64,000 nucleotides of DNA. It comes from Pelagomonas calceolata (lineage: Eukaryota). The notes below the pieces were generated by a model. The model was not told where the DNA came from. It saw only the letters and a list, made by a program, of their open reading frames with translations, and made no database searches. A program made the translations under genes and the position numbers. This document shows, in pieces, positions 308 to 61,680 of the stretch (position 1 is its first letter; each line of letters opens with the position of its first letter). The stretch lies in contig CAKKNE010000005.1 in NCBI GenBank assembly GCA_918797485.1, positions 2,604,001 to 2,668,000 of the forward strand, in the 5' to 3' direction.

Positions 308-330
308 CTAGTGACTTACAGACCGCTAGC
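308..330. promoter_or_regulatory. CTAG-bounded intergenic motif
   Basis: CTAGTGACTTACAGACCGCTAGC. Confidence 0.7.
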
Positions 331-440
331 AAATCGGCAGCGCGCCAGGGTTCAACGCGCGGAGGACGGAGGTGTGGCAGCTCACCGGAGCGCATAAAGC
401 CACGTCGACAAAACAACAGGCGTCAAAATTCCACAAGAAG

Positions 441-2792
441 TTAAAACCCCCCGACCGCGTCCGCGAAGCCGGCCGGCGCCCACGTCGCCAGGGCCCAGGC
501 GCCGTCGGCCGCGCCGCTCTTCGCCGCCTCGAGCTCGGCGGCCACGGCCTCGAGCTCGTCGGCCTCCAGCGCCACGTCGAGCAACGTGCTCGCGGGCGCC
601 ACGTCCCGGCGGAAGGAGCACGAGAGCGTGGACGCGAGCGCGACGACGGAACCTGGTGCCGCGGCGCCCAGCGCCGCCGCGTGGCCGCCCGTCGCCAGCA
701 CGCGCACGCCGAGCGACTGAGGACCGGAAACTAACCGAAACGCCGTCGCGTTCGACGCCGAGGCCTCCCGCGCGAGCAGGGACGCGACGAACGCAGTAGC
801 TGACGCATCATCATCCAAAAGCCGGTGGCGGTACAACGCCGCGTCGGCGCCGCCGAAAACATACCCAACATGAGTACCACACGCCTGGCACGCCAGCCGC
901 CGCGCCAGCCGCCCGCCGCACTGCTGGTGGCAGCCCCGCGGCGCCTCGAGCGTCTTCGCGCCGATTTTTAGGAGCGACGTGTCCGCGCCGCAGAGCCGGA
1001 TCGAGCAGCGCCCGACGAAGCGTTCTCCATCAATAGGTACGGTCGCCGCGCTCTGCAGGACGGGCTGGGCCGTGTCGCAGGACAGCGCCGCGGCGACCTC
1101 GTCGGGCTCGAGGTCGCCGTCGCGGACGCGCGCGGTCGCCTCGCGGCGCGGGGCTAGTGGCGCGGAGCAGGCCCTACAGGCCGGTGCCGCCGGCGGTTCT
1201 GTAATTGTGCCGTGGTCCTCAAAAATAACCGTGGCGGCCTCGGCGTCGCGCGCGCCGGGGGCGAGCCGTCTCAATCTAGAATACGGCAGGCGCACGCGTA
1301 GGAATTTCGCGCCGTCCTGTTTGACCTTGGACGCCTGACATTTGTTTGGTTCCAACTGCGCGGGCAGGCGCAGCGTCTCGCGCGTGGTCGGCGAGGCGAG
1401 CTCGACGCGGTCGCCGTCCACGCTCAGCTCGCCGCGGCCGTCGGGCAGCGTGAGCACGAAGGTCCGGATGCCGGGCAGGTGCTCGACGCGGCCGCCGGCG
1501 AAGGTATAGGGCTCTTTGGTTTTTGTTGTTGTCGGCGCGGCGGCCGGCGCGGGCGGCGTCGGTGGGTCGGCCGGCTTCGGCGGCGTTGGCGGAGGCACAG
1601 GCGCGGCGACAGGCGGCGCCGCGGGCGGCGCGGCGCGGGCCAGGGCCTGGCGGGTCGCTTTGGAAGCGAAGCCGCCGACGGCCGCCGCGGCCTTCGGGGG
1701 AGGCGGCGGCGCGACGGTGGCCGACGCGGCAGCTGGAGGCGCCTTCGGGGCCGCGGGCGGCGGCGGCGCGGCGGAAATGGACGGCGCGGCCCAGACGGCC
1801 GCTTCCTTCGCGGCCCAGTCGACGCGGACGACGCGCGGCGCCTCGCAGAGCATCGTACCGGCCCGCGTCTCGAGGCGGCAGCTCAGGACCGTCGGGGAGG
1901 GACACGTCGACCGCGTCGCCGCGCGCTTGTCGCCCTGGCGCCTGTAGTGCGCGCAGGCAGCCGTGGCCTCGGAGAGCGATATTTTGAGGTCCTCTTCCAC
2001 GTACTCCGACGCGAGCGGCTCCTCGTCCAGAAACGCCGCGTCCCGCAGCGTGACCACGAACCCCGCGTCCTCGTCCGGGAGCGGGTCGAGCGATATGGTC
2101 AGAGCGACCTCGCGGCCCGCGAACCTTGTTGAGGTGACGTCGATCGTGCCGTCATACGAAACCTCCTTTTCAGGTTGCACGGAAGGCGCGTCCGGGGCGA
2201 GCCCCGCCTGCAGCTGCTCGGGGTCGATGGCCGCCGTCGCCGCCTTGCACTTCTCGCCCAGTTCTTTAGCTCGGCGCTGGGCCGCCTCGACGTCACTACT
2301 GCGTTTCGAGACGCTCTCGGCCGCTTCCATAGCTTTGGCCCGCGCGTCGGCCGCCTCGCGCTGCGCCGCCTCGAGCTCGGCCCGGGCCTCGGCGATGGCG
2401 CGGCGCGCGGCGGTCTCGCGCTGCGACGCCTTCTTCGTCGACACCTTGGCCGTCATTTGGAGCTGGCGCCGGAGCTTGTCCATCTCCTTCTCCGCGGCTC
2501 GGGCAGCACTCAACGCCTCGGCCGCGGAGAGCGACGACACGTGGGCGCCGAGCTCGCGTTCCAAATCGCGGACGGCCTTCGGGTCCGGCGGCGGCGCGCG
2601 GCCCCTCCTCAATGTTTCGGGCGCGGCGAGCGCCTGGCGCTCAACGTCGGAGTCGTCGCTGTCGACGTCGAAGCGCGAGTAGTCGAGGCCGTACTTTTTG
2701 GGCACGGGCTGCTTCGGCGCGGCCGGCGGCACGAAGAGGTTCGTCGTTTTTTGTTGGCGGTGCTTGCCTTTTAGCTTTTTGTTGTTGACCAT
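441..2792 (-). CDS. Coiled-coil/Pro-rich protein with C-terminal UBE3D/HECT_2-like Cys domain (putative E3 ligase)
   Basis: 783 aa ORF; C-terminal CRACSAPL...LACQACGTHVG...LYRHRL pattern resembles UBE3D; N-terminal DYSRFDVDSDD motif. Confidence 0.55.
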   Translation of the reverse strand: MVNNKKLKGKHRQQKTTNLFVPPAAPKQPVPKKYGLDYSRFDVDSDDSDVERQALAAPETLRRGRAPPPDPKAVRDLERELGAHVSSLSAAEALSAARAAEKEMDKLRRQLQMTAKVSTKKASQRETAARRAIAEARAELEAAQREAADARAKAMEAAESVSKRSSDVEAAQRRAKELGEKCKAATAAIDPEQLQAGLAPDAPSVQPEKEVSYDGTIDVTSTRFAGREVALTISLDPLPDEDAGFVVTLRDAAFLDEEPLASEYVEEDLKISLSEATAACAHYRRQGDKRAATRSTCPSPTVLSCRLETRAGTMLCEAPRVVRVDWAAKEAAVWAAPSISAAPPPPAAPKAPPAAASATVAPPPPPKAAAAVGGFASKATRQALARAAPPAAPPVAAPVPPPTPPKPADPPTPPAPAAAPTTTKTKEPYTFAGGRVEHLPGIRTFVLTLPDGRGELSVDGDRVELASPTTRETLRLPAQLEPNKCQASKVKQDGAKFLRVRLPYSRLRRLAPGARDAEAATVIFEDHGTITEPPAAPACRACSAPLAPRREATARVRDGDLEPDEVAAALSCDTAQPVLQSAATVPIDGERFVGRCSIRLCGADTSLLKIGAKTLEAPRGCHQQCGGRLARRLACQACGTHVGYVFGGADAALYRHRLLDDDASATAFVASLLAREASASNATAFRLVSGPQSLGVRVLATGGHAAALGAAAPGSVVALASTLSCSFRRDVAPASTLLDVALEADELEAVAAELEAAKSGAADGAWALATWAPAGFADAVGGF

Positions 2793-2995
2793 GGCTGCCG
2801 CTTATCGGCTGCTGCCGCTTTGCCGCTGTCCAAGGCTATCTCCCCAGGCCTTGGCAGAGCTCGATCTAAGGGTTTCCGGGGCGCAGGGCTCAGCGCTCCG
2901 TGTGTAACTATTGTATTCAAAGCTGGTGCTGATCCAGCGCGCAAACAACGCCGATCAGCCGCCTCGGCTGCTGTTTTTTTTTTCTTTTTAGCTTG

Positions 2996-3014
2996 CTAGT
3001 GCCTTAACGCTAGC
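2996..3014. promoter_or_regulatory. CTAG-bounded intergenic motif (short variant)
   Basis: CTAGTGCCTTAACGCTAGC. Confidence 0.6.
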
Positions 3015-3026: not shown

Positions 3027-6000
3027 AATAACTCTCCCGCGCTCCGCGCGCACACGCTGCCCTTGGCCTTCTTGTGAGCTAAGTCGGGCAGCAATCCAGT
3101 TCAGAAGAGATGACGTCGCTTGCGCTGCAACGCGTTTTTGTGATCGAGATGCCTGTAGCTGGATTCTGCTGATCTGTGCTCCGCGTGCAAAATGAAGCGC
3201 GGTGCGGTCGCGGTCGACTCCGACGCGTCGGACTCGTCGCCTGCGGCAGACGAGGAACCGGGGGCAGCGGTGGCTGCCCCGCGGGCGCCGAGCGTAGACG
3301 GGGTGCCGGACGCGAGGACGGCGGGGGCGAAGAAGCCGCCGGCGCGAGGGCGTCCGCGTCAACGCGCGAGGCGAGACAAGGAAGGTGTGATGGAGGACCC
3401 GGACGGCACGGAGTGCGATGCTCCGAGGCAGCCGAAGGCAGATGCCTTGCGGGCCCTCTGCCGTGAGGCCCGCTCCACACGAGCACCGCCGCCGCCACCG
3501 GCGAGTCGGAGCCGAAGTGGACGGTCGCAGTCGCCGCCGCCGCGGCGGGCGCGTCGCGAGCGGCCCGTCGACTCGGGTCAGGCGTCGACGCCGGCCACGG
3601 CGCCGCCCAGACCGGCGCCTCTAGATACAAGACGAGCGGCCGAAGACGTGGGAGCTGTACGGCCGCCATCAGATCCGGCGCGGGGCCGGGATCCGACGCC
3701 TCGCGCTCTCCCGAGTGGTGGTATTGCCGAGTTCCGCGTCCCGGAGCAGAACGCCGCCGCCGCGAGTTGGGTACCCCAACACCCTAAACGTTTCAGCAGG
3801 GCGTCGCCGAGGCGCTCGCCTCGCGGACATCCCAGCTCGCCGCCCGCGGCGCCGCGGAAGAAGAAGCGGAGCGCGGAGAACACGGGGCCGGAGCGTACGC
3901 GCAGTCGGGCGCGATCCCGTCGATCGGCGGCTCCATCGCCGACTGGTAGGGGATTGATGGCCGCTTTTGTCCAAGGGAATAGTCTGCGGTGCCTCGAGCC
4001 TCGAGAGGGTGACCCCGAGCCCGCCGCGGGCGACGCCGCGGCCGCGCCGCCGCCGGCCGCTGACGCGACGGAGACGGCGCCCCCGCCGGTCGTGGGCGCG
4101 GCAGACGATCCCCCCGACGACGCCGATGAGCGGGCGCGGCGGGCGGGTCTCTTACTCGAGACGCCCGAGGAGCGTGCCGCGGCCGCCCGTCGGTCGCGCT
4201 CGCCGAGACGCGCGGCCGGCGCGGACAACGGGGTCCACGAGGTCGACGGCGACGACGCGAGCGACGCGGGCAGGTCGGTGGGTTCGGTCGAGTACAACGC
4301 GCACGCCGTCGACCGCCTGGACCGGCTCTTAGCGGGCCAGGAGTTCGACGACGAAGACGGATCGTGGCGCGTGAAACGGGTCATGTTCGACGCGGAATTC
4401 GAGGTTCCAGTGGCGCTCTACTACCGCGCGACGCTCGACGAGGTACCCGCCGATGGCGTGTGCGAATCCTCCGCCGCGTCCGAGGTGCGGGGCTTGGTAC
4501 GAAACACGACGCGCGTCCGGAGAGAAGACGCGCGGCGGGCGGCTCTGGAGATGTCGAAGGCCGAGCGTTTGGAGGCGAGGGCGCTCCCGAAATTGCCGGC
4601 CATTAGGGTGCCGGCGGCGAGCGAACAATTCACGGCCATCGACGGCGTCGACTCGATGGACATCTTCGTCTGTAAGCTTCACGGCATCGCGAGCGTGCCG
4701 AGGTCTCTGGTTAGCCGGTGGGCTCGCGCGATGGCGAAGACGCTTCGCTGGGTGATCGACGCGGAGGACGCCGGCGACGACGACCGGCTCAGGCGCGCTT
4801 TGCTCTGGCGTAAGGGTCTCGCTCAATTCCTGCTACGGCGCGTTAAAGGGGGTGGGGCGCGCAAGCGGAATCGCCGCCACGCCGTGTTCCACCGCCGTTT
4901 TTTGATGTTCGAGAACGGGGCCTACGCGGCGCTACTCGCGTCGTGGGCCTCGGACCTCGAGGCCGCCAAGCGGCGCGGCCCGGGGTCGCACAGGGTCCAG
5001 GACGACGCGGCGAAGGTCAAACGGGCCGAAGAGCTCGTGCGGGCCGGCGAACTATCGAAGGCGAACAGCGCGCTGTTGAGCGAGGGGACGCTGGACCCGA
5101 GAAACCCTGCGGTTTATAGGAAACTTAAGGAAAAGCACCCGACGAGGAAGGCGGACGTCGACTTCGACCTCGAGAAGGACTTCCGGCTCGCCGACGAGCT
5201 GCGACCCGATGTGAAGTTCGCGAAGCTGCGGCGCAAGGCCGGCGTCGGGCCAGACGGTTGGAAGAACGAGTACCTGAGCGTGCTCGACCGCGCGCACGAC
5301 GATCCTGACGCGAAGCCGGTTATGGAATTGTGGAAGGAGTTCGCGCGGCTCGAGTCGAACGGCCTTTTCCCGGCCTGGTGGTACTACGGGCAGACGGCCG
5401 TCCGCCTCGTCGCGCTGAACAAAGGAAACGGCGACCCGCGGCCGATTTGCGTGGGAAATAGCGACCGACGCGCTGTCGCCAAGGCCATCGTCGCGGAGGT
5501 TAAGGAAGCCGCGGCGGAGGCGTTGGCCCCCGTGCAGATGGGCGTGGGAGTGAAGGACGGCGCCGCGAAGCTCACCTTCTCTCTGCGCGCGAGCCTCGAG
5601 CTCCACCCCGACTGGGTGTTAATTTTAGTAGATAAGAAGAACGCGTTCAACGAGATCCATCGAGCGGCGTGCATCCGCGCGTTGGCGGCGACGCCTGGCT
5701 TCAAGGGTATCGCGCGCTACGCGTACTTGCACCTCGCGCCGAAGTCGCCCATCGTGATCGGACAGGGGGAGATAGCCGATTTTGCCTCGGAGGAGGGCGG
5801 CCAACAAGGCGACGGCGTCTTCCCGTTGGCGTACTCGGTGGGCTCGTACGCGTCCTGCAAGGCGCTCGATGCGGACGCCGCCGCCGAGGGCGGCATGGCA
5901 CGCTTTTTCTTCGACGATGGTTATATCCACGCGCCGGCCGAAGTCGCCTTTGACATCCTCGCGAAGTACGAGAACGCGATCCTGGTCGACGGCGAAGTCC

Positions 6001-6864
6001 CCCAACGAAGGAAGTGCGAGGTTTATAGTCCGACGTGGGGCGCCGGCCTCGGATGCGCGCCGGAGGTCGCGTCGAGGAAGGTTGCGACCTTCCGCGACGC
6101 CGCGTCGCAGGAAGAGGTGCCCGTCGACACGGACGACGAGGAGTGGGATAATGCCCCCGTCGCTCGCCGGGTGGCCGAGGCGGCGCCGTGGGATGAGGCG
6201 CGGATAGCCGCGGAATATGCCGTGGAGCGCGCCAGAGCCGCCGTGGCGACGAGGGCCGAGCGCGGTAACGCGCCGGTTGATAGGCGCGCCCGTCTCGTGA
6301 ACGGGCAGTACCTGAAAAAGGCCCACAACCTGGATGTGAAGTACAACTCGGTCGGGGGCGTCGAGTGTGGTCCGATGGAGAACACCATTAGGAGCCGCGG
6401 CGAGGTTTGTGGTCTCGCGTTCGGCAGCGCCGGCGAGGCGTCCGCGGACGTCCATCGCCTCGCACGCGTCTGCGCCGACGAGATCGCCGGCAAGCAGTTC
6501 CGAAAGGGCCTGATCGACGCTGATTCGGTCGAGGACGCGGCGGCCATGATTCAGGCCCAGATCTACCGGGAGTGGGGCGTGGCGATTGTCAAGGGTCGGG
6601 CCGAGTGTCTACTGGCTTTGTTGGAATGTACGGTACCGAACGCGTCGCCGCGGTCCAAGGTCGCCTGCGGGAAGTCGCGGGACAAGTTGATTGAACGGGC
6701 GAACGTTGCACATTGTTCGGGGGGGTTTGCCGAGGCGGTTCAGCTTAGAAGGAGGTACGCTGTTATGAAAGAAGCGGCCCGCGCCCGCCGCCGATGAATC
6801 GGCGACGCGCGGTGTCTCCCCCCCAGGGGCTCCGCCCACTAGTCCTAGCACCGTAACATCGACT
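3027..6864 (+). mobile_element. CRE-clade-like non-LTR retrotransposon (boundaries tentative)
   Basis: Single RT ORF flanked by GTTCCGTGCA at 3017-3026 and 6865-6874 (candidate TSD); no poly(A) tail seen. Confidence 0.55.
3192..6797 (+). CDS. Reverse transcriptase ORF of a CRE-like non-LTR retroelement, apparently internally deleted
   Basis: RT motifs RPICVG, QMGVG, DKKNAFN, GGQQGDG, FFDD; C-terminal GLAFGSAGEAS.DVH resembling the tail of an RLE endonuclease region. Confidence 0.85.
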   Translation: MKRGAVAVDSDASDSSPAADEEPGAAVAAPRAPSVDGVPDARTAGAKKPPARGRPRQRARRDKEGVMEDPDGTECDAPRQPKADALRALCREARSTRAPPPPPASRSRSGRSQSPPPRRARRERPVDSGQASTPATAPPRPAPLDTRRAAEDVGAVRPPSDPARGRDPTPRALPSGGIAEFRVPEQNAAAASWVPQHPKRFSRASPRRSPRGHPSSPPAAPRKKKRSAENTGPERTRSRARSRRSAAPSPTGRGLMAAFVQGNSLRCLEPREGDPEPAAGDAAAAPPPAADATETAPPPVVGAADDPPDDADERARRAGLLLETPEERAAAARRSRSPRRAAGADNGVHEVDGDDASDAGRSVGSVEYNAHAVDRLDRLLAGQEFDDEDGSWRVKRVMFDAEFEVPVALYYRATLDEVPADGVCESSAASEVRGLVRNTTRVRREDARRAALEMSKAERLEARALPKLPAIRVPAASEQFTAIDGVDSMDIFVCKLHGIASVPRSLVSRWARAMAKTLRWVIDAEDAGDDDRLRRALLWRKGLAQFLLRRVKGGGARKRNRRHAVFHRRFLMFENGAYAALLASWASDLEAAKRRGPGSHRVQDDAAKVKRAEELVRAGELSKANSALLSEGTLDPRNPAVYRKLKEKHPTRKADVDFDLEKDFRLADELRPDVKFAKLRRKAGVGPDGWKNEYLSVLDRAHDDPDAKPVMELWKEFARLESNGLFPAWWYYGQTAVRLVALNKGNGDPRPICVGNSDRRAVAKAIVAEVKEAAAEALAPVQMGVGVKDGAAKLTFSLRASLELHPDWVLILVDKKNAFNEIHRAACIRALAATPGFKGIARYAYLHLAPKSPIVIGQGEIADFASEEGGQQGDGVFPLAYSVGSYASCKALDADAAAEGGMARFFFDDGYIHAPAEVAFDILAKYENAILVDGEVPQRRKCEVYSPTWGAGLGCAPEVASRKVATFRDAASQEEVPVDTDDEEWDNAPVARRVAEAAPWDEARIAAEYAVERARAAVATRAERGNAPVDRRARLVNGQYLKKAHNLDVKYNSVGGVECGPMENTIRSRGEVCGLAFGSAGEASADVHRLARVCADEIAGKQFRKGLIDADSVEDAAAMIQAQIYREWGVAIVKGRAECLLALLECTVPNASPRSKVACGKSRDKLIERANVAHCSGGFAEAVQLRRRYAVMKEAARARRR

Positions 6865-6869
6865 GTTCC

Positions 6870-12725: not shown

Positions 12726-13415
12726 GGTTGCGATGGCCTGCGGTGAGCGTGGGGGTTATCCTGTAGCGGTGAGACGTCGCGGGTTCCCGCCCTGTATATG
12801 ATTTGAATTTGTGGGCAGGAAATCGCCGCCGGCGTAATGCGGCGCGACCGTCTGGGTGTCTTGATGTCCTTGCGGCGCGTCGTGGCTGCAGCGGGTCTGG
12901 CGCTCCGCATAGAGAGCACTGTTTCTCGCTGAGGCTGCCCCAGCGCGCACACATGGCCGTTGCCCGCCCGGTTTTCGACGGCGCGGGCGAGCATGGGCTG
13001 CGAACGTGCTATCGTTTTTTTCTCGCGCGGATTGGTGCGGTATTCAAGAAGATTGGGGCGTGTAAGGGACCAGCCTCTGAGCGCGCCTTTGCGAGAGCCC
13101 AGCTTTTTTGAAATTTTGGAAACATAGCCATCGGTGCAGCGAGCAGACTTAGACTACAGCTCAGCAACCTTGGCACGGCATGCGCGCACTGCTAGTGCTA
13201 GTATCTGTCTTACTAGCTACCTCGGCCTTCGGTGTCTGAACAGACACGCGCTCTCGCAGTGTTGCAAAAAAGTGCAGCCCGCGTCCGCCGCATCATTCCT
13301 TGAGTCACGGGCGCACGGACCAGCAGCAGCGGCGCGCGATATAACCGGTGCACACTGCACAAAGAGTGGGGTCGCATCTAGGAAGAAAGCACCACACAGG
13401 CCGACGGACCGCACC

Positions 13416-18703: not shown

Positions 18704-18847
18704 GTTTTACTGGGGCAGCCTATAGATCACTTTTACCGCATCACAGTGGTCCTGGGTGCCGCTGGCAGCTTCGTGCTGTGGCCGGCCAGTCGCTAGAGTC
18801 AATGCCAGGCCCGTGGCCAGCCAAAACGGATCTCAAAGCGCGCGGCG

Positions 18848-18870
18848 CTAGTGTGTTACTGGACGCTAGC
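18848..18870. promoter_or_regulatory. CTAG-bounded intergenic motif
   Basis: CTAGTGTGTTACTGGACGCTAGC. Confidence 0.7.
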
Positions 18871-23065: not shown

Positions 23066-23085
23066 GCTAGGCATTAACACACTAG
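23066..23085. promoter_or_regulatory. CTAG-bounded intergenic motif (reverse, short variant)
   Basis: GCTAGGCATTAACACACTAG. Confidence 0.55.
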
Positions 23086-24518: not shown

Positions 24519-24541
24519 GCTAGCGGTCTGTAACATACTAG
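24519..24541. promoter_or_regulatory. CTAG-bounded intergenic motif (reverse)
   Basis: GCTAGCGGTCTGTAACATACTAG. Confidence 0.7.
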
Positions 24542-24728
24542 AAAGCCAGCCGGTGCGCCCATTTTTAAAGCGCCGGGCTTGTCTGCGGGCTGTAGGGACG
24601 AAAGCACTCGCTCGCAAGACAGCCGTGCACCTCACTTTTGACCTGCTCGTTTCGAACCGGCTGCGGGACCCGCTGTAGCGGCAGCAAGCGCGCCTGAAGC
24701 CGTGCTCGACGTTCGGGTGCGCGCGACG

Positions 24729-28415: not shown

Positions 28416-28436
28416 CTAGTGTCTTACGCCGCTAGC
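28416..28436. promoter_or_regulatory. CTAG-bounded intergenic motif
   Basis: CTAGTGTCTTACGCCGCTAGC. Confidence 0.7.
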
Positions 28437-31921: not shown

Positions 31922-32194
31922 GCTAACTTTGCGGACGGCGAGCTGTGCTGTATTCTAGCTTTGCGTGCGGCCAGCGGTACTGAGCTTTTGCTTTGCGTAC
32001 GGCCCAGCGCTGTTTTAACCTGATAGACGTTTGCCCAACTATTCGTATTGTGTGCGCCGAGGTGTGCCGTTTCCGCCACTCAGCCGGCTGAGCAGTCAAT
32101 GAAGGCTATTACAATCGCTCAGCTTGGTCGCACAGGCCCGCAACAGCCCAGACGCCACCAAAAACGACAGCTGCTAAACCCGTGCATTTAATTA

Positions 32195-32216
32195 GCTAGC
32201 GTCTGTAAGACACTAG
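32195..32216. promoter_or_regulatory. CTAG-bounded intergenic motif (reverse)
   Basis: GCTAGCGTCTGTAAGACACTAG. Confidence 0.7.
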
Positions 32217-37975: not shown

Positions 37976-37996
37976 CTAGTATGTCGATACGCTAGC
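37976..37996. promoter_or_regulatory. CTAG-bounded intergenic motif (degenerate)
   Basis: CTAGTATGTCGATACGCTAGC. Confidence 0.5.
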
Positions 37997-39304: not shown

Positions 39305-39329
39305 CTAGTGCCTTACAGTGGCCGCTAGC
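39305..39329. promoter_or_regulatory. CTAG-bounded intergenic motif
   Basis: CTAGTGCCTTACAGTGGCCGCTAGC. Confidence 0.65.
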
Positions 39330-47589: not shown

Positions 47590-47803
47590 GGTGCTTGTTG
47601 TGTTGGTGCTTGTTGTGCGGCTGCGCTTGCTTGTGCGACGACGGGAGGTCGACGGCGGGAAATTTCTGAGATGACCTCGGCCAGTTAAACTACTGAGAGC
47701 CTAGTAGCTTAAACAGTCGGCGATCGAGGAATATGCATCCCAAAGGGCTGCCCATCGAGCATGGGCTGCCACTGCAATGGTGCGAGGTCTCCAAAATGTG
47801 TTC

Positions 47804-47827
47804 CTAGTGTCTATACACGACGCTAGC
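47804..47827. promoter_or_regulatory. CTAG-bounded intergenic motif
   Basis: CTAGTGTCTATACACGACGCTAGC. Confidence 0.7.
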
Positions 47828-48846: not shown

Positions 48847-48875
48847 AAGATGTTGTGTCACAGGATATACACAGC

Positions 48876-49781: not shown

Positions 49782-50087
49782 GGTTGCGTGACGAGACGAC
49801 CTTGCCAAAGAGTCGCGCGCTTCGGCCACCGCTTTTTCAGCGCTTACAGTAGTGTAAAATCTTCGCTGCTGAGGCGTTGTTGAGCTGCCAAACGGATCAA
49901 TGCGACCGTATGGAGTATTCGTATAGTAAGCTCTCCCAGCCACTGCTTGAAATCTGAGCGCCAATGAATGCTGGAGGCGGTAGAGTTTGTCTGGCGGCAG
50001 GCAGATGAATCTATTCCGAAGCTCCGGTGCGCAGCGGATTGGCAAGGCACTCTCAGTCCAGCAGGGACCCGAGTCGAGCGCGCGAGG

Positions 50088-50110
50088 GCTAGCGTCGTGT
50101 AACACACTAG
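50088..50110. promoter_or_regulatory. CTAG-bounded intergenic motif (reverse)
   Basis: GCTAGCGTCGTGTAACACACTAG. Confidence 0.7.
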
Positions 50111-50978: not shown

Positions 50979-50999
50979 TCAACTAAACCACAATAATTA

Positions 51000-52637: not shown

Positions 52638-52660
52638 GCTAGCGTCCTGTAAGACACTAG
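52638..52660. promoter_or_regulatory. CTAG-bounded intergenic motif (reverse)
   Basis: GCTAGCGTCCTGTAAGACACTAG. Confidence 0.7.
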
Positions 52661-52849
52661 CAAGCCAAAACGCACCAAAAAAATAGCCAGCGATTCAGAC
52701 TCACGGTCTACGCGGCCGCACGGGGTTACCGCGACGGCGGACCAATTGTGGCGAGATCGTGAGGAGACGGTAGCGCCGCGGCAATCACGAGAGGCAAATT
52801 TTTAATTTTTCAAGGACCTGTGTGAGGTCAGCCAGCGCGACGCCGCGCG

Positions 52850-53686: not shown

Positions 53687-53773
53687 CGTAGTCAGATCTC
53701 CCGGAGAATCCTCCAATCTCGTTTTGATCCCCTTTTGCCGTCACCGCTTAACATCGGCCTCTTTCGAGTGAAG

Positions 53774-53796
53774 CTAGTGTCTTACACGACGCTAGC
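53774..53796. promoter_or_regulatory. CTAG-bounded intergenic motif
   Basis: CTAGTGTCTTACACGACGCTAGC. Confidence 0.7.
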
Positions 53797-53933
53797 CTGG
53801 CCAGGCTCGCCTCGCAATTTTTTTGAGCAGCTCCAGTCGCTGCGTTGCAGTCGCGAGTAGCTCATTCGAAGACATTGATGGTGCGCTGCAGCGAGCCGGG
53901 CTCGATTTTGACGCCTAAGGGTAGCTAGCCACA

Positions 53934-56645
53934 ATGATCGGCTGGTCAATCCTGCTTGCTGCGGCCCTGGCCGCGGCGTCTGATACGGACGACGCCTGCG
54001 CGGTGGAACAGCGGCGCGGCGCAGCAGCCATCCGAGCGGTGCGCCACGGCCGCGTCGCGGACCGCGCGGAAGCGCGGGTCGGCTCGAAAGTGGTAACAGC
54101 GTACAAGAAGCGGCGCCCGCCGATCGGACGGGACGGCGAATTGCTGTGCCACGCCTTGTATGACCTCGAGGTCAAGGTCTGCGGCGGCGCCTCCACCTCA
54201 ATCAAGGCCCACGCGCCGGAGCGACAGTGCCCGCGCGAAGGCCAGCGAGGTAGAAGAAGGGGCGCGAACGGGCCCGAGAATCCCAGAGTACTCCCCACAA
54301 CTCATGTCGACGGCTTCGTCGTCCTCTACACCGACTGGTCCGAAAGGAACGGGACTTATGAAAGATCAAAATTCATCGCGCACGGGACCATCAACGGGGA
54401 CGGGCCCTCCCTTAGTACACCTTCCATCGTGGATGCGCCCTACGGCGACTGGGCGCCCTTTTTGTATGACGATGTTTTATATGCGCACACTTACCTAGAT
54501 TACCTCGGCGACGCGGTGACGTCGAGACTTGGCGACCTCCACTCATACAACTGCCCCGGCGCTGGGAAAGCCCTGCGCAAGGCCTTGGGCGGAGCCACGC
54601 CTTTATTTGACTCCGTGCGCATCGAACCGGGCTCGAACGCTATATTAGTAAACAACGAGTACGTCGCAATCGGCAAAACCGTCAGGCATTTAGGCCACGA
54701 GGTGCAGCTCAAAGCGCTGTTCGCCTACGCCTTCTCTCCAAAGCCGCCCTTCTGTATCACAAAAACGTCGCCGGAGTTCCACGCGCCCGTGCCGCATGCA
54801 TCTTCCTCAGAAGCCTTCGACGCGTTGATTCCAAGAAGGAGCGACCCGGGGAAGCATCGCGAGGGCGTGCAGACGCCCTTTTCGTTGATAGTGGTGGACG
54901 ACGGGCTGCGGCTGGCCTTCACGCGCAAGCACTCGGCCTACTCTTTAGTCCTGAACACGTCGACGCTATTCAAGGATTCACGCCGTTTGAAGTACGGTGG
55001 CAAGTCTACAATCGCCCAATACCTCAAGGCGGTCTACCCAGCTATGATTGAACAAGATAATACAAAACTCGTAAACCTCTACGAGTCGCTCGACTACTTT
55101 TATCGAGGCCCGGCGTTACCTTATATACCAAAAGGCGTCTACTACTCGGCGAACGACGCCACCACGGATATCGTACCTACACAAAAAGCGATTGAACGTG
55201 CTCAACAAGGCGAGGAGCACGGCGTGTTATATGGATCATATATCCGGTGGAAGGCCATGTTAAGGCGCGTCTCACAAAAGGAGGAGGACCTCAAGTCTTC
55301 ATGGGGAGCTCGATTGGGCCCGGCGCCGTCGTGGACCCACGCTAGTGCCGCGGTGAAGTACCCCTTGTATCCGCTCGGGTTATCTACAACACAAGGTGCC
55401 GTGCTAGGTAGGCCGGACAACCCTCTTGATGGAAGGTGGGACGTCCCTACGAGAAGGAAGAAATTCACACACCTCAAAACGGGAGAATACGTCGAGATAG
55501 AGCAGTACGGAGGCCCGGACTGGGTCCTCAGTGAATTCCCGATCACCTCGCGGGGCATCGCCGGCCTCTTCTGCAACGTCTGGAAGGGCACCGGTCTAGG
55601 CCTTAAAGTGGTCGCTCCTTTTGTTTCCCGGAGCAAGGGTGCGGCGGTCGCCGATCTGTTGAGGGAGGTGGGCCGGCGGCAGGATTTAACTGGTGGCGAG
55701 GACTACGTGAGTGCGCTGGCTGCCTTGTCTGGTGTTGGTTCTCCAGACATAGAAAGGAGGCGCCTCGACGACCAACGGACGTTGGGCGTCGGCCATTGGG
55801 TGAAGAGCCTCTTTAAGCAGCAGAAGACACCGCGGTCGCACGAAGACAGAGCCGTGCACCTCGCCGTCGGTTTTTTAGCACTCCCAATACCCTGCGCGAC
55901 GAGCTGGGACGCGATCGATGCGAGGTGGCGCCGCTGGCGCGAGTCCGCCGTCGATGCCACGGAAGCGGCGTTCGCGCCGCCCTCTGGCCGATGGCGCGCG
56001 AAGCGGCCCGTCTCGGAACTCTTCGACGAGCTAGCCTTAAGAAAGGAGGCGCCTGGCAACGCGTCTCTAGCTGCTTTACACTGGATCTACGGGCTCTGCT
56101 CCAAAAGCCCATACTATTCCGGGCCGGCCAATAAAAGGTGCGCGGCGGAAAGACGTAGAGGTAATGACGGAGAAGCTTGTAAGAGACGCTGGCTCGCCTG
56201 GGACAACCTGCTCATGGTTTTGAGTTGCGCGATCGGCTCGAAAACACTTATTCTGGATGCGTCGCCCAACGACAACGGATTGTTCCACGAGGAGCTCATC
56301 GATTATGATGTTCCTGGCGCGTGGGCGACGATCGACGACGGGAAGTCGCTGAATCCTCTCTCCGAATGTCTGGCGCCTTTTGATGACGGTCGGGCGGCGC
56401 CGTCGCGTCAAGATGTATTAGAGCACTGGCGCGCTACTCACAAGTTCGGGCGCGTCGACCCTTTGAAGGGTACGGCGGCACCTTGTGACTTGATAGGAAG
56501 CGACGGCACTCAGTTAGGAGAGCACAACGGCGGGGGCTACCTCGCGTGCAAGGACTCGCTCTCGGAGTCCCACGCGTTGTGTGTGCGGGACCGGGAGCGC
56601 ACGAAACGAGCTGCTGGTTCAAGGCGGGCGCCCGGTTGTGGTTAA
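53934..56645 (+). CDS. Secreted protein, N-terminal half possibly a beta-propeller glycosyltransferase/glycosidase-like domain
   Basis: Signal peptide; DWAPF and YAFSPKPPFCITKTSPEF motifs seen in such proteins. Confidence 0.55.
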   Translation: MIGWSILLAAALAAASDTDDACAVEQRRGAAAIRAVRHGRVADRAEARVGSKVVTAYKKRRPPIGRDGELLCHALYDLEVKVCGGASTSIKAHAPERQCPREGQRGRRRGANGPENPRVLPTTHVDGFVVLYTDWSERNGTYERSKFIAHGTINGDGPSLSTPSIVDAPYGDWAPFLYDDVLYAHTYLDYLGDAVTSRLGDLHSYNCPGAGKALRKALGGATPLFDSVRIEPGSNAILVNNEYVAIGKTVRHLGHEVQLKALFAYAFSPKPPFCITKTSPEFHAPVPHASSSEAFDALIPRRSDPGKHREGVQTPFSLIVVDDGLRLAFTRKHSAYSLVLNTSTLFKDSRRLKYGGKSTIAQYLKAVYPAMIEQDNTKLVNLYESLDYFYRGPALPYIPKGVYYSANDATTDIVPTQKAIERAQQGEEHGVLYGSYIRWKAMLRRVSQKEEDLKSSWGARLGPAPSWTHASAAVKYPLYPLGLSTTQGAVLGRPDNPLDGRWDVPTRRKKFTHLKTGEYVEIEQYGGPDWVLSEFPITSRGIAGLFCNVWKGTGLGLKVVAPFVSRSKGAAVADLLREVGRRQDLTGGEDYVSALAALSGVGSPDIERRRLDDQRTLGVGHWVKSLFKQQKTPRSHEDRAVHLAVGFLALPIPCATSWDAIDARWRRWRESAVDATEAAFAPPSGRWRAKRPVSELFDELALRKEAPGNASLAALHWIYGLCSKSPYYSGPANKRCAAERRRGNDGEACKRRWLAWDNLLMVLSCAIGSKTLILDASPNDNGLFHEELIDYDVPGAWATIDDGKSLNPLSECLAPFDDGRAAPSRQDVLEHWRATHKFGRVDPLKGTAAPCDLIGSDGTQLGEHNGGGYLACKDSLSESHALCVRDRERTKRAAGSRRAPGCG

Positions 56646-56670
56646 GTATTACTGTTACACACACATCACA

Positions 56671-57945
56671 TCAGGCGAACACCTTCACGACAGAGGCAAT
56701 CGGGGCGCGGCAAATGGGACACCGCTCGCCCCTCCTTTCTAATCTAGAAGCACATCGGTAGCAGGCGCACATGTGCCCGCACGGCGCCAGCACGGCGTCG
56801 CGCCTCCTTACTAAGCAGACGGCGCAGTCCGTCGTAGAACCCTCATTGTTTTCAATGTCTGGCGGCCCGCACTTGAGTAAGGCCGCATTCGCCTCTTCCA
56901 CGGCCTTCTTCAGAGCGGCAGAATCCCCAAACTTGCAGCCAAACGCCAGATCCACGTCGACGCAGCGCCGCACGAACCTCCGATTGTCCTCTGGGGGCGC
57001 GTGCAATGCCAACCGTAGCCCGTATTCGGTGGTTGAGGGTGTGAGTCGAGCTAGTCGTCGTAAAGCGGCATCCGCGGCTAGCCGAGAAGCCGGCTGCGGC
57101 TCGACACGCGTTAGTAGTTCTGTGCGGTTTTCATAGGTGAGCAAATCGTGAACCAAGGCGTGTTCGGTTACTGTGAGTTGATCCACATTCTCGACGGCGA
57201 CGGCCAGATCCAAACACGCGTAGCCTAGCAAATTCCTTCGTCTCACTCTGACAACTTCCGCGTGCGCGTCGATGGTCACCACTTCATAAGCTGGCTGGCA
57301 CATAGCGTAGACGAGGATGATCAGGCAGACTAGTACAAGTAATTCATCCGTGCCCGAGTCGTCGTACTTGAGCGATAACGCTGCGGGTCCTATCGACGCC
57401 TCATCGAGGTAAGTTTGGATCTGGCGGAGCGCGTGGGACGCGCGCTCGATGTCGTCAAACACGTGTACTTTACGTCTCATGCCGGCCTCGTCCGTGACCA
57501 CCAAGGTAGATGATACATGCCCCGGCCGCTTCTTGAGGGCCTGTCGTCTTGGAGGGTGGTCCGCGTCCAGGTCCGCGTGGAGCGCCTCCGCGAGGAGTCG
57601 TAACCGCGTCGCGTTCGCCGTGGTGCCGCTCTTCTGGCGCGTCCTTAACGCGTTCGAGACCTCGAGAACGATATCTGCCGACGCCACCTCAAACGTGCTC
57701 CGCAGCCGCTTCTCCCAGAGGCGGTCGACGCCGCGCGGGCTGCTCGTGACGACGCAGTCGTTGTCCTCTCGTTTGTTGTGTCGCTCGTGCGTCGCGCAGC
57801 GCAGCACATCTCTATGATGCTTCGAGTCGGCGGTGAGAGCCGCGATGAGTGCGATGAATGCGCATATTACTGTGGGGCGCACTTTGACGTGCCGCAGCTC
57901 TAATCTGCCTCCACCTTTGTGTTCTAGTCTTGGGCCGACGAGCAT
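56671..57945 (-). CDS. Membrane protein with C-terminal C3HC4 RING finger
   Basis: CAVC...LAPCGHMCACYRC...CPICR; two hydrophobic segments. Confidence 0.8.
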   Translation of the reverse strand: MLVGPRLEHKGGGRLELRHVKVRPTVICAFIALIAALTADSKHHRDVLRCATHERHNKREDNDCVVTSSPRGVDRLWEKRLRSTFEVASADIVLEVSNALRTRQKSGTTANATRLRLLAEALHADLDADHPPRRQALKKRPGHVSSTLVVTDEAGMRRKVHVFDDIERASHALRQIQTYLDEASIGPAALSLKYDDSGTDELLVLVCLIILVYAMCQPAYEVVTIDAHAEVVRVRRRNLLGYACLDLAVAVENVDQLTVTEHALVHDLLTYENRTELLTRVEPQPASRLAADAALRRLARLTPSTTEYGLRLALHAPPEDNRRFVRRCVDVDLAFGCKFGDSAALKKAVEEANAALLKCGPPDIENNEGSTTDCAVCLVRRRDAVLAPCGHMCACYRCASRLERRGERCPICRAPIASVVKVFA

Positions 57946-58123
57946 CTTTGCCCTGTCTGCTCTGCCTCCTAGTTTATCTGTTTGCTGTTGATCGGCGTCG
58001 CCAGGCGTCGCCAGGCTTTGCGCGCAGCGAGTTTGCTGAACAGGGAGCACACTGCGTTAGCGCCAGGCCTTGGAAGCCAGCTCTAAACAGCCTTTACTGC
58101 CGCAAAACAGCTCTTGCTCTTTT

Positions 58124-58146
58124 CTAGTGTCTTGCATACCGCTAGC
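58124..58146. promoter_or_regulatory. CTAG-bounded intergenic motif
   Basis: CTAGTGTCTTGCATACCGCTAGC. Confidence 0.7.
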
Positions 58147-58303
58147 TCGGCTAATTTGCAAATTAATTTGCAAGCTATAGCGGGCGCTCGCGGCGTTCGG
58201 CGCATTTAGATTTCGTCATCATTACCCACGTTACTGATACCAACCGGTTTCACACAGAGCGATCGGTGCCCAGCATCTACTGGAGAGAGATCACTGTAAC
58301 AAC

Positions 58304-59335
58304 ATGTTTGGACTTGTCAGGACGGGCCTGGATAAACTTAAGGCTTGGGTCTCGGGAGAAGCGGGTGATTATGATTGGGAGGAAGCGCATGCTAAATATC
58401 TCTCTTTCCTCACGCCGGGGCCCTTTCAGCGGGCAGTCGCCGGCGGCGACGTCGAACTAGTCCGCGAAATGCTCGCCCGCGGCGAGGACCCAAACGAGCT
58501 AGACGCTCCGGCGGCGCGCGTGATAGGCGACGGGATCGAGCTGGCTGGCGGCTTAGACGCGATCGAATGCGCCATGGCCATGCTCAACCACAGGAGGCGA
58601 CCGGAGGACGCCGACGCTGTGCGAAATATCTTCGCTTGCATCGAACTTTGTCTCGACGCCGGCGCCCTCCCCGACGGTCCTACGAGAGAGAGATGGGAAA
58701 ATACACCGCTTGGTTTAGCGGTAGAACAGGGCCGGCCCGAGTTTGTACGGCTTTTCCTCTCGGCCGGAGCCGACCCGAATGCGCCGGCGGACCCCAAAGG
58801 AAACACGATACTGCATCACGCTTGTAGATTGGGGGGGAACCGTGCAACGTACGAAATTGTTCGACTGCTACTGGCGGCCGGCGCCGATTACACGGCACGG
58901 ATCAATCCGCTGCACGGCCAGATCAGGGCACTTATTTTTGAAACTCCTTTTGGGATAGCGGTCACCTTCGGGTATCACCGCCTGTGGCCCCTTTTCCTCC
59001 GAGCCGGTGCTGATGTTCCGAACTTCTGGAGAGGGTTCATGGAAACTTCACGCTGCCCCGAGAAGGCGCAGCGCTACGAGTATCTGCGCATGGTCGAGGC
59101 GGCCGGCGGCTTCCAGGCCTACGAGAAGGCGCACGCGAAGGCGCTCGCGGCGACGCTCGCGAAGAAGTTCCCCGCGCACATCCCCGAGGAAGTATTCCCG
59201 CGCGTCGTCGCGTTCTGGGCCCACACGGGCTTCTACGGTTCGGTGGCAGCCGTCGCCGTGCTGGCCGCGGAGACGAATCCCCGGACCAACCGGGGCAATT
59301 TGCTACGAAATCTCTGCGGAGCTATTAGGGCCTAA
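58304..59335 (+). CDS. Ankyrin repeat protein
   Basis: TPLGLAVEQG...LSAGADPN, GNTILHHAC...LLLAAGAD. Confidence 0.85.
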   Translation: MFGLVRTGLDKLKAWVSGEAGDYDWEEAHAKYLSFLTPGPFQRAVAGGDVELVREMLARGEDPNELDAPAARVIGDGIELAGGLDAIECAMAMLNHRRRPEDADAVRNIFACIELCLDAGALPDGPTRERWENTPLGLAVEQGRPEFVRLFLSAGADPNAPADPKGNTILHHACRLGGNRATYEIVRLLLAAGADYTARINPLHGQIRALIFETPFGIAVTFGYHRLWPLFLRAGADVPNFWRGFMETSRCPEKAQRYEYLRMVEAAGGFQAYEKAHAKALAATLAKKFPAHIPEEVFPRVVAFWAHTGFYGSVAAVAVLAAETNPRTNRGNLLRNLCGAIRA

Positions 59336-59394
59336 GCACCATACACAATGACTTATTCAATCGATAGCGACCCCCCGACGCCATCGCCGCGCCC

Positions 59395-60360
59395 TCACAG
59401 CTCGCCCCGCGCCGCCGCCCGCCTCTCAGCATCGCCATGGTCGACGCCGGGCAGGTCGCACCACCGGTGCTCGCAGTCGGGCTCGTAGTAGCCCGTCCCC
59501 GTGAGCTGCAGCCTATCATAGGCGCCGTCGTCCGGGACGTGGAACCCTTCCGAGCCCCACCACTTTTCGGCCAACGCCCGCGCGTCCTCCATGCGCAGGC
59601 TCCAATCAATAGGTCTATAATGGACGAAGAGCGACGTGTACCATTTTCCTTCCAACGGCCGCGGCCGCCCGTGGATGCACTTCGCGCTCTCGTAAAAGAG
59701 CATCTCGCCCGGCTGCAGGTCGACCTCCACACTCCTCCCATCATAGCCTTCGATCACGATCGGCCACGGCTCCGCATCCCTATCAACATGGACTATGGCA
59801 CTGATAACATGCGTCTCGAGCTTGTCCGTGTGCATGGTCAGCGTGTTGCCCGGTCGATATATCCTCAATCCATACGCGTTCGACGCCCGCAGCTTCGTTT
59901 GGGACCACTCTTCGTGCATCGGCCGCAGGTCCTCCATGATCTCATTCGCCAATCTCCCGAGATCCACAAAACCGGCAACCTCCCCCGAGATCTGGTCCAC
60001 CTTATGTTCTGTCCTCTGTTGATCGAAGCCCGCAACGAGCGTCGCGTTCAGCTTCTCGTGGACGTGTCTTGGGGTCTTCACGACCTCATAGCCCACACTC
60101 GTAAAGTTCTTCACCAACAGACCACTCACAGCTAGATTCATCGCCGCGTCCCAGCGCTCCTGGGAGCTTTCGATCCTCCTCACTTGTGCTAATCTGTAAT
60201 CTAATCTCTTGCGCCACATGTGCGTCTCGGGGATCCACTGACCGTACTTTTTCGCTATAGGGTCGCGCTTCTTGTGGCTTTTGCTGACCGCGGCGTCGAG
60301 CCAGGGCTCGGCGGTTGCTTCGAGCGCTACGAGCGCTAGCGTCGCGAGCGCGCGCCGCAT
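59395..60360 (-). CDS. Secretory-pathway 2OG-Fe(II) oxygenase (prolyl-hydroxylase-like)
   Basis: YGLRIY...MHTD...HGRP (HxD...H triad); signal peptide; C-terminal RGEL. Confidence 0.8.
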   Translation of the reverse strand: MRRALATLALVALEATAEPWLDAAVSKSHKKRDPIAKKYGQWIPETHMWRKRLDYRLAQVRRIESSQERWDAAMNLAVSGLLVKNFTSVGYEVVKTPRHVHEKLNATLVAGFDQQRTEHKVDQISGEVAGFVDLGRLANEIMEDLRPMHEEWSQTKLRASNAYGLRIYRPGNTLTMHTDKLETHVISAIVHVDRDAEPWPIVIEGYDGRSVEVDLQPGEMLFYESAKCIHGRPRPLEGKWYTSLFVHYRPIDWSLRMEDARALAEKWWGSEGFHVPDDGAYDRLQLTGTGYYEPDCEHRWCDLPGVDHGDAERRAAARGEL

Positions 60361-60537
60361 CCTACGCTGTCGGCTCTGCGCTGTATGTCTGTCTGTATGT
60401 GGCTGGCGACCGCTGCGGCTGTGATTCTCGACAGGCCGCGTCGACAGCGAGGGACTGGAGCGTCAGCTCCTATCCAACTGTGCGCGCGTGCGTCGTAAAA
60501 GCTGCCAAGGCTGGCAAAAAAACAGCAAAAATAATGA

Positions 60538-60560
60538 GCTAGCGGTCTGTAAGACACTAG
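60538..60560. promoter_or_regulatory. CTAG-bounded intergenic motif (reverse)
   Basis: GCTAGCGGTCTGTAAGACACTAG. Confidence 0.7.
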
Positions 60561-60780
60561 GAATCCATTAGATGATGCAATGACGTGAGGCTCTCGAGCT
60601 GACTGGCCAAGTTCGGCACCGCCTGACGCTTCTGTGCGTACCGCATTGCTGCTGCGCCAGCGCTGCGCAACGCTGACGCCGCGCAATAGCACTCTTGCAC
60701 AAGTGCACAGCTCATTGTTGCTGCTGCTCCAGCTGCCACCGCTGCTCGGGAGAGTAACTGCTGGCAAACAGCTGCAAAAG

Positions 60781-61680
60781 ATGCGTTTCGCAACCCTCGC
60801 GGCGCTCGCAACCGCCTACCAAGCGCCGCCTCGCACATGTCCCGCCATCAAACGGCGCGCCCCGCCTCTGCGCGCAACCGCGGCAGCGGGAGACGTGCCA
60901 GCGACCGTCAGCACTCTGTGGCGCTACCCGATCAAGGGCTTCCCGCCGGACTCCCTGCCCCAAGTGACGCTAGTCGAGAACGGCACGTTCCCGCAGGATC
61001 GCCTCTGGGCCGTCGCGGACGCGGCTGACGACGGCGGCTTCGACGCGGCGGCGCCGCAGTGGGTCCACAAGCAGCACTTCTTCGGCGCCTTCCGGAGCCG
61101 GGACCGGCTGGCGTCGCTGAATACCTCGTTCGCCAATGGTCGATTGACGTTCTACGGCGCCGACGCCGTGACGGTGGACCCCTCTACTAAAAAGGGCCGT
61201 GGGACGATCGAGGACATCATCCGGCGCCGCGTCGGCGCGGCGACGAAGCTCGTGACGGGCGGCGAGGCGCATCAATTCGGGAACACGCGGTCGGGCGTGC
61301 GGCACCACGGCGACACGCGCACGGTCCACGTCGTCAACGCGGCGTCCGTGGCGGCGGTGCGGCGGGCGACGGGGCTGGACGTTGACGCGGCTGTTTTTCG
61401 GCCGAACGTTGTGTTGGAGGGCTTGGAGGCGTGGGTGGAGGAGGGCTGGGTGGGCAAAACTCTAGAGATCGGTGGCGTGCTGCTGGAGGTCATCGCGCGT
61501 ACCGTCAGATGCGACGCGATCAACTTTCATCCGACGACCGGCAAGCGATGGCCGGACAACCGGGACCTCGTCCAGGAGATCGCGGACAACTTCCCCGCCG
61601 TCGGGCCCTACCTCGGGGTTTACGCACGTGTCGCGCGAGGTGGGACGCTGGGGCGCGGGGGCGGCGTCGCAGTCATGTGA
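60781..61680 (+). CDS. MOSC-domain protein (mARC/YcbX-like) with N-terminal targeting peptide
   Basis: LWRYPIKG, DRLWAV, VHVVN.ASV, FRPNVVLEG...W.EE.WVG, RC, LGVYARV. Confidence 0.85.
   Translation: MRFATLAALATAYQAPPRTCPAIKRRAPPLRATAAAGDVPATVSTLWRYPIKGFPPDSLPQVTLVENGTFPQDRLWAVADAADDGGFDAAAPQWVHKQHFFGAFRSRDRLASLNTSFANGRLTFYGADAVTVDPSTKKGRGTIEDIIRRRVGAATKLVTGGEAHQFGNTRSGVRHHGDTRTVHVVNAASVAAVRRATGLDVDAAVFRPNVVLEGLEAWVEEGWVGKTLEIGGVLLEVIARTVRCDAINFHPTTGKRWPDNRDLVQEIADNFPAVGPYLGVYARVARGGTLGRGGGVAVM

What the first reader, a model, noticed from the sequence alone, without database searches (positions are those of the whole stretch)
308..60781. The CTAG motif is polar: its CTAGTG end sits about one nucleosome length from an ATG
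Seen: distances from the CTAGTG/CACTAG end to the predicted ATG on that side are 200, 204, 145, 264 (start uncertain), 188, 65, 182, 215, 203, 190, 88, 179 and 221 bp, so 9 of 13 fall in 179-221 bp in both orientations. The degenerate copy at 13198 is 204 bp from an ATG at 12994. Inference: orientation-dependent spacing suggests the site sets the TSS or phases the first nucleosome. Phased nucleosomes with linker CG methylation by DNMT5 are established for the pelagophyte Aureococcus. ATG choices are my predictions.
Basis: partly seen in the sequence, partly recalled or inferred. Interest (0 to 1): 0.7.

Follow-up and report, generated by a model that had tools for sequence, protein, structure and literature searches.

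The report
Two-way promoter motif of a pelagophyte
In a tiny marine alga (likely Pelagomonas), a 22-base near-palindrome sits in most back-to-back gene promoters and RNA starts about 20-40 bases from either end of it, so it is likely a two-way promoter signal, not the one-way, nucleosome-length spacer first proposed.

Summary
The motif is real; the polarity is not supported. Sixteen copies of CTAGTGTCTTACA(N1-5)CGCTAG lie in the window, none in coding DNA, in 13 of 16 divergent but 1 of 16 convergent gaps. Eleven of the 13 copies also face an ATG on the CGCTAG side, at similar distance. In independent metagenome copies the 179-221 bp cluster does not replicate (8 of 34 versus 5 of 31), and the two sides are alike (medians 168 and 160 bp). 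Stranded RNA-seq puts transcript 5' ends 18-42 bp from the motif edge in 8 of 9 genes, four on each side; at one copy both starts flank it symmetrically. The ~190 bp to the ATG is therefore ~30 bp plus a variable 5' leader. No ~180-bp CG periodicity was found. Best reading: a quasi-palindromic site for a general DNA-binding factor that starts transcription outward both ways (factor inferred, not shown). A symmetric CG dip 130-160 bp out is unexplained and leaves nucleosome phasing open. I found no description of the motif in the searched literature.

The parts
308..329 (+). Motif copy; tandem gap, CTAGTG end faces ATG 108
2996..3013 (+). Motif copy (short spacer, extra CTAG to 3017); divergent gap, ATGs 204 and 175 bp away
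13198..13216 (+). Degenerate copy (11 bits, orientation weak); divergent gap
13235..13241 (+). RNA 5' end cluster, 18-24 bp from the degenerate copy, on its CGCTAG-like side
   Evidence: all four runs
13272..13399 (+). 128-nt GT-AG intron in the 5' leader; makes up most of the 200 bp to ATG 13416
   Evidence: joints
18813..18827 (-). RNA 5' ends 34 and 20 bp from the CTAGTG end of copy 18848
18848..18869 (+). Motif copy; divergent gap
23067..23085 (-). Motif copy; divergent gap
24520..24541 (-). Motif copy; tandem gap, CTAGT end faces ATG 24729
24560..24560 (+). RNA 5' end 18 bp from the CTAGT end (a second cluster at 24674, 132 bp)
28416..28435 (+). Motif copy; short divergent gap (ATGs 65 and 53 bp away)
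32153..32153 (-). RNA 5' end 42 bp from the CGCTAG end of copy 32196
32196..32216 (-). Motif copy; divergent gap
37976..37995 (+).
39305..39328 (+).
47666..47669 (-). RNA 5' end cluster 134-137 bp from the CTAGTG end of copy 47804 (the exception)
47804..47826 (+). Motif copy; divergent gap
50056..50063 (-). RNA 5' ends 25-32 bp from the CGCTAG end of copy 50089
50089..50110 (-). Motif copy; divergent gap
52639..52660 (-). Motif copy; divergent gap
53774..53795 (+). Motif copy; divergent gap
58091..58092 (-). RNA 5' ends 31-32 bp from the CTAGTG end of copy 58124
58124..58145 (+). Motif copy; divergent gap
60502..60502 (-). RNA 5' end 36 bp from the CGCTAG end of copy 60539
   Evidence: run X24
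60539..60560 (-). Motif copy centred between two mapped divergent starts 91 bp apart
60593..60593 (+). RNA 5' end 32 bp from the CTAGTG end of copy 60539
   Evidence: run X23

Best explanation
The motif is a 22-bp quasi-palindrome in promoter DNA, with RNA 5' ends 18-42 bp outward from either end, and is likely the binding site of a general, probably dimeric, transcription factor that places start sites in both directions. Shown: promoter-only location, half-site symmetry (GCTAG-Y-G-K-C arms round a TTACA core), 5' ends on both sides, and the same ATG spacing and flanking composition on both sides. Inferred: a bound protein, nucleosome clearing helped by the T/A tracts 8-28 bp from the motif, and two back-to-back initiation complexes. 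The ~190 bp to the ATG is ~30 bp plus a variable 5' leader, not a measured nucleosome length.
For: Location: 13 of 16 divergent, 2 of 3 tandem and 1 of 16 convergent gaps, and none in 51.8 kb of ORFs. RNA: of the 30 'end' rows shown lie 18-42 bp from a motif edge, 6 at 100-137 bp and 4 elsewhere. By gene, 8 of 9 have a proximal start, 4 per side; p=4e-5 if placed uniformly between motif and ATG. At copy 60539 both starts flank the motif, so it lies in neither mRNA. 3' ends fall at poly(A) loose ends, which confirms the strand reading. Symmetry in 121 non-redundant metagenome copies: ATG distances p=0.80, head/tail 45:12 vs 48:20, p=0.31, detrended CG profiles of the two sides r=0.80 against a null of 0.13+/-0.17. 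Arms agree at positions the search pattern did not force (G at -1: 71% and 85%), with no compensatory change (0 of 16), which favours reading of double-stranded DNA. Human motifs with symmetric outward initiation are described (10.1101/2023.06.27.546584, passages; PMC3082894, abstract).
Against: No protein, footprint or mutation data. 5' ends come from ordinary poly(A) RNA-seq of one recorded sample, not cap mapping, and 19 begin/end rows were not shown. Only one copy has both starts mapped, each from one run. One gene starts 134-137 bp away, and three divergent gaps lack the motif, one of them beside the most deeply covered gene (16108). Several motif-flanking ORFs are nearly silent, so the site is not sufficient. 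A weak lean of the CTAGTG end towards the gene in tandem promoters remains (11 vs 6, p=0.33; 2 of 2 in the window). ATG calls come from a crude Markov model trained on 27 window ORFs.
Confidence: 0.68

Rival explanations
1. The site is mainly a symmetric chromatin barrier (working like yeast Reb1/Abf1 sites): its factor phases nucleosomes on both sides, and starts fall where they do because of the nucleosome-free gap.
For: Motif-anchored composition is sharp and mirror-symmetric: CG dips at 130-160 bp (p=8e-6 and 2e-8), and CG is high at 275-299 bp (p=5e-3 and 4e-4), about 180 bp beyond a local high at 100-120 bp. T/A tracts lie 8-28 bp from the motif. Reb1/Abf1 are described as key for promoter architecture (PMC9481977, passages).
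Against: The CG highs do not continue past ~300 bp, there is no 170-200 bp periodicity in 225 kb, and the test windows were chosen after viewing the profile. The dip comes with outward-strand CA but not TG, unlike methyl-C decay. In yeast such factors repress initiation within about 50 bp, whereas starts here lie 18-42 bp away.
Confidence: 0.17
2. One reading: a polar site whose CTAGTG end fixes the ATG one nucleosome length away.
For: 9 of 13 window distances in 179-221 bp against 3 of 12 on the other side (p=0.047); draws from the metagenome distances give such a cluster in 3.5% of trials. Both tandem window copies point CTAGTG at the gene; the motif sequence itself is asymmetric (GCTTG left flank, TTACA core).
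Against: Label swap p=0.16; no replication (8 of 34 vs 5 of 31); starts on both sides; two of the nine in-window ORFs (50313, 52850) are nearly silent while the opposite gene is expressed.
Confidence: 0.06
3. The motif is a remnant of a mobile element (Helitron 3' end, or a CTAG-targeting miniature transposon) or a cruciform-forming DNA hairpin that collected in promoters.
For: CTAG at both ends; 4 of 8 copies folded have z about -2 or lower.
Against: The base after the right CTAG is C in 85% and T in 4%, and similarity among copies stops within 5 bp of the core. No compensatory pairs. Four of 8 copies fold no better than shuffles. No gap holds more than one copy.
Confidence: 0.05
4. The motif marks replication origins that share promoter gaps.
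For: Intergenic, with nearby T/A tracts.
Against: One copy per 4 kb is far denser than eukaryotic origins (recalled, about 30-40 kb in yeast), and the tight tie to RNA starts needs no origin.
Confidence: 0.03

Closest known systems
Human bidirectional promoter motifs: Staf/ZNF143 SBS (PMC3082894, abstract) and the symmetric group SP, NFY, ETS, ZNF143, NRF1, CREB (10.1101/2023.06.27.546584, passages)
   Same: [quoted passage not shown]
   Different: Different sequence as far as I recall those motifs (not tested by a tool); here one long motif is in 13 of 16 divergent gaps in a genome stretch where 32 of 35 gene junctions alternate strand, and it lies only 18-42 bp from the starts; no factor known.
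Yeast general regulatory factors Reb1, Abf1, Rap1 (PMC9481977, passages)
   Same: Common promoter sites that shape promoter architecture; T/A tracts nearby (the yeast tract association is recalled).
   Different: Yeast factors repress nearby divergent initiation and raise directionality; this site has starts close on both sides.
Oomycete core promoter elements INR, FPR, DPEP (PMC3599244, abstract)
   Same: Stramenopile, TATA-poor core promoter motifs of 16-19 nt.
   Different: Those lie at or downstream of the start and combined INR+FPR is in about 13% of genes; this motif lies upstream, outside both transcripts, and is two-way.
DNMT5 nucleosome-linker CG methylation in Aureococcus, Micromonas, Emiliania (PMC9998398, passages; the original Huff and Zilberman 2014 paper was not held, details recalled)
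   Same: Same algal class; CG-rich genome (CG observed/expected 1.31).
   Different: No linker-length CG periodicity detected; I know of no anchoring DNA motif in that system (recalled).

Membership tests
Bidirectional promoter factor site (ZNF143/NRF1 kind) | Enriched between head-to-head genes | tested here: met
   13 of 16 divergent vs 1 of 16 convergent gaps
Bidirectional promoter factor site (ZNF143/NRF1 kind) | [quoted passage not shown] | tested here: met
   Four genes per side with 5' ends at 18-42 bp; both sides at copy 60539; RNA-seq ends, one sample
Bidirectional promoter factor site (ZNF143/NRF1 kind) | Bound by a sequence-specific factor and needed for both genes | not testable with these tools
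   Needs binding and reporter assays
TATA-type core element | Fixed short distance upstream of the start | tested here: inconclusive
   18-42 bp spread, one gene at 134-137 bp; RNA-seq ends are imprecise
TATA-type core element | Acts in one orientation | tested here: not met
   Starts on both sides
Oomycete INR/FPR/DPEP | Overlaps or follows the start site | tested here: not met
   Motif lies upstream of all mapped 5' ends
DNMT5 linker-methylation phasing | CG periodicity at nucleosome repeat length | tested here: not met
   No autocorrelation or spectral peak at 170-200 bp in 63 sequences, 225 kb; power is limited
DNMT5 linker-methylation phasing | Phased CG-rich linkers anchored on the promoter | tested here: inconclusive
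   CG highs at about 110 and 290 bp on both sides, not continued
DNMT5 linker-methylation phasing | Linker 5mC and positioned nucleosomes | not testable with these tools
   Needs bisulfite or nanopore methylation calls and MNase-seq
Helitron 3' end | CTRR end followed by T (recalled feature) | tested here: not met
   C 85%, T 4% after the right CTAG; A 0% before the left CTAG
Helitron 3' end | Shared element body and conserved hairpin | tested here: not met
   No shared flank beyond 5 bp; no compensatory pairs

The most novel reading that the evidence does not exclude
Pelagomonas runs most of its genes from one long two-way core promoter element that stands in the TATA position for two back-to-back genes at once. 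A single factor loads two initiation complexes and fixes the chromatin on both sides, and this is why genes are arranged almost entirely head-to-head. One window extrapolates to roughly 8,000 copies for about 16,700 genes.
Probability: 0.3. Interest if true: 0.82.

Novelty: new variant of a known kind. Interest (0 to 1): 0.6.

Why it matters
P. calceolata is described as among the most abundant open-ocean eukaryotes (10.1101/2024.10.30.620910, passage), and I found no promoter element described for pelagophytes. A long, common, two-way element would give a start-site marker for annotating pelagophyte genomes and metagenome bins, a ready dual promoter of about 100 bp for genetic tools, and bait to catch the factor. 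It also makes testable how a compact eukaryote builds two start sites within 91 bp, and whether one DNA element explains head-to-head gene order.

Tried and rejected
No whole genome is held, so the genome-wide histogram was replaced by a metagenome scan that stopped at 123 loci; 80 had long flanks. Viral contigs: 5 matches at 2 distinct places, one apparently inside coding DNA and one in a CTAG-rich giant-virus gap; treated as chance. Rfam: 0 matches in the window. Hairpin or RNA structure: rejected. 5'-leader introns as the cause of the CAG excess at 140-150 bp: only 1 of 9 genes with mapped starts shows such a joint. Methyl-C decay as the cause of the CG dip: TG does not rise. A sharp second motif at 120-175 bp: none found. 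Naming the species behind the metagenome loci: two loci gave pelagophyte homologues but no species name, so they may mix lineages. Literature: ten searches, listings only for most; none described the motif. Huff and Zilberman 2014 and Huff et al. 2016 were not held. Supplements of PMC9481584 were not read and could mention promoter motifs. Four look-ups of earlier findings gave nothing that bears on this.
Full report
ORGANISM. The window is 63.5% GC with CG observed/expected 1.31. Its SecA is 67% identical to an Aureococcus protein, 76% to a cluster holding another, and lies on a 5.29-Mb contig. P. calceolata has six chromosomes, 32.4 Mb, 63.6% GC and 16,667 genes (PMC9481584, section read). 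The source is a pelagophyte, and by inference P. calceolata. No whole genome was available for scanning.

THE MOTIF IS REAL. There are 21 CTAG pairs 14-22 bp apart against a mean of 4.6 (max 11) in 200 local shuffles. A two-block weight matrix finds 16 copies, 14 of them at 20 bits or more, against none at that score in 5 shuffles; the matrix was partly trained on window copies, so this count is not independent. A scan of metagenome contigs for the strict consensus stopped at its limit with 123 loci, giving 121 non-redundant copies averaging 63% GC. Two loci checked encode pelagophyte-like proteins, species not named. The commonest form is (GCTTG)CTAGTGTCTTACAGGCCGCTAG(CT); 86 of 121 are 22 bp. 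It is a quasi-palindrome: left arm GCTAGTGTC, right arm read on the other strand GCTAGCGGC. The arms agree at unforced positions, but changes are not compensatory: where the left arm has G for C, the partner stays G in 16 of 16. With my gene set, copies lie in 13 of 16 divergent, 2 of 3 tandem and 1 of 16 convergent gaps and in no ORF; 32 of 35 junctions alternate strand. Some small ORFs in that set are unconfirmed.

All 14 distances reproduce. Only one side was measured. Eleven of the 13 copies also have an outward ATG on the CGCTAG side, and the motif sits at 0.40-0.55 of the ATG-to-ATG interval. Against: the window was fitted afterwards, swapping side labels reproduces it in 16% of cases, and the medians do not differ (p=0.31).

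REPLICATION. I called genes beside the 121 copies with a Markov model trained on 27 window ORFs. CTAGTG side: 34 gene starts, 9 gene ends, 14 uncalled, 64 too short. CGCTAG side: 31, 18, 16 and 56. First-ATG medians are 168 and 160 bp, interquartile ranges 131-204 and 125-207 (p=0.80). In 179-221 bp fall 8 of 34 and 5 of 31. Adding calls from short flanks gives 45:12 and 48:20 starts to ends (p=0.31), and 11 against 6 in one-sided pairs (p=0.33). A weak lean is not excluded; a strong polarity of distance is.

RNA. Stranded poly(A) reads from four runs of one recorded sample were laid on 12801-32800 and 46500-62000, 35.5 of 64 kb and 12 of 16 copies. 'Begin' pile-ups match poly(A) loose ends near 14120 and 16877, so 'end' pile-ups are 5' ends. 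Of 30 such rows shown (19 further begin/end rows were not shown), 20 lie 18-42 bp from a motif edge, 6 at 100-137 bp and 4 inside genes or at the edge of the stretch. CTAGTG side: 58091-2 (31-32 bp), 60593 (32), 18813 and 18827 (34, 20), 24560 (18), and the exception 47666-9 (134-137). CGCTAG side: 50056-63 (25-32), 60502 (36), 32153 (42), 13235-41 (18-24, degenerate copy). Eight of 9 genes within 45 bp has p=4e-5 under uniform placement. At copy 60539-60560 the two starts are 91 bp apart with the motif in the middle, so it is in neither transcript. Start-to-ATG lengths are 80-282 bp, one containing a 128-nt intron. Reading the depth bins by eye, the better expressed neighbour is on either side about equally often, and ORFs 12994, 50313, 52850 and 53686 on the CTAGTG side have depth of about 1 or less.

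CHROMATIN. Composition is mirror-symmetric (r=0.80, null 0.13+/-0.17). Outward TTTT is enriched at 8-28 bp (65 vs 17.7). CG dips at 130-160 bp on both sides with a rise of outward-strand CA and CAG but not TG, seen on sides facing gene starts and not on those facing gene ends; CG is high again at 275-299 bp (windows chosen after viewing). No 170-200 bp CG periodicity appears in 225 kb. The dip could be a second start zone (two genes have 5' ends at 132-137 bp) or the edge of the first nucleosome; I cannot tell which. DNMT5 linker methylation in Aureococcus is stated in PMC9998398 (passages) but was not testable here.

MECHANISM. Shown: a promoter-restricted quasi-palindrome, starts 18-42 bp outward on both sides, symmetric flanks. 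Inferred: a dimeric or two-domain general factor binds the double-stranded site, keeps it clear with the T/A tracts and loads two initiation complexes back to back (0.68). Rivals: symmetric nucleosome barrier (0.17), the polar model (0.06), mobile-element or cruciform relic (0.05), origin (0.03).

COMPARISON AND NOVELTY. It works like human bidirectional motifs (PMC3082894, abstract; 10.1101/2023.06.27.546584, passages). It differs from yeast general regulatory factors, which suppress nearby divergent starts (PMC9481977, passages), and from oomycete INR/FPR/DPEP, which lie at or after the start (PMC3599244, abstract). Searches for pieces of the sequence, for pelagophyte promoter motifs (0 papers) and for Pelagomonas with promoter (14 papers, 11 listed, none on this by title and abstract start) found no description; the genome paper's main text has no 'motif' or 'promoter'. 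Subscription journals and supplements were not seen.

VERDICT. Observation partly confirmed; polarity and nucleosome-length spacing not supported; the element itself is a real, apparently undescribed two-way promoter motif. Interest 0.6, new variant of a known kind.

Noticed in passing
window 15754, 16001, 47745, 47763; flanks of the metagenome copies: A second palindromic promoter motif, GGGC(A/T)GCCC or its 8-bp core, is enriched within 160 bp of the CTAG motif (13 vs 0.8 expected). Two copies lie in the motif-less divergent gap 15654-16108, and two lie 76-94 bp upstream of the exceptional start at 47669.
   Followed up: partly
whole window: 32 of 35 gene junctions alternate strand (16 divergent, 16 convergent, 3 tandem), and many convergent gaps are under 60 bp.
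   Followed up: partly
130-160 bp outward of the motif, both sides: Sharp CG dip with outward-strand CA/CAG excess, and a CG high at 275-299 bp; unexplained.
   Followed up: partly
window 3192-6860: A 1201-aa ORF with a weak reverse transcriptase match (E 2e-4, below cut-off); its 3' end (6698-6860) recurs at 88-100% identity in L053, L058, L071 and L108. Possibly a non-LTR retroelement with dispersed 3' fragments.
   Followed up: no
window 51346-51415: A 70-nt intron on the minus strand that draws many partly fitting RNA reads from other places and matches L041: a repeated, possibly Introner-like element.
   Followed up: no
window 46118-46489; 24104-24263 and 59080-59236: Dispersed repeats shared with L008, L029, L061 and with L067.
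   Followed up: no
window 37588-39690: About 2 kb of lower-GC DNA with no confident ORF, holding two motif copies (37976, 39305); not covered by the RNA calls. Possibly a non-coding or decayed transcript.
   Followed up: no
window 61221-61270: RNA reads with a joint going back from 61270 to 61221 with 22 extra letters in all four runs; possibly reads from a paralogue or a local duplication.
   Followed up: no
L004 1501-1520 (same stretch as L005): One pattern match between two ORFs in a CTAG-rich giant-virus contig, with a second CTAG-TTACA-like word beside it on the other strand; probably chance.
   Followed up: partly
L042: The motif also sits 60 bp upstream of a protein kinase gene in a 73% GC contig whose close relatives read were all from metagenome-type sources without a species name, hinting that it extends to other pelagophyte lineages.
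   Followed up: partly
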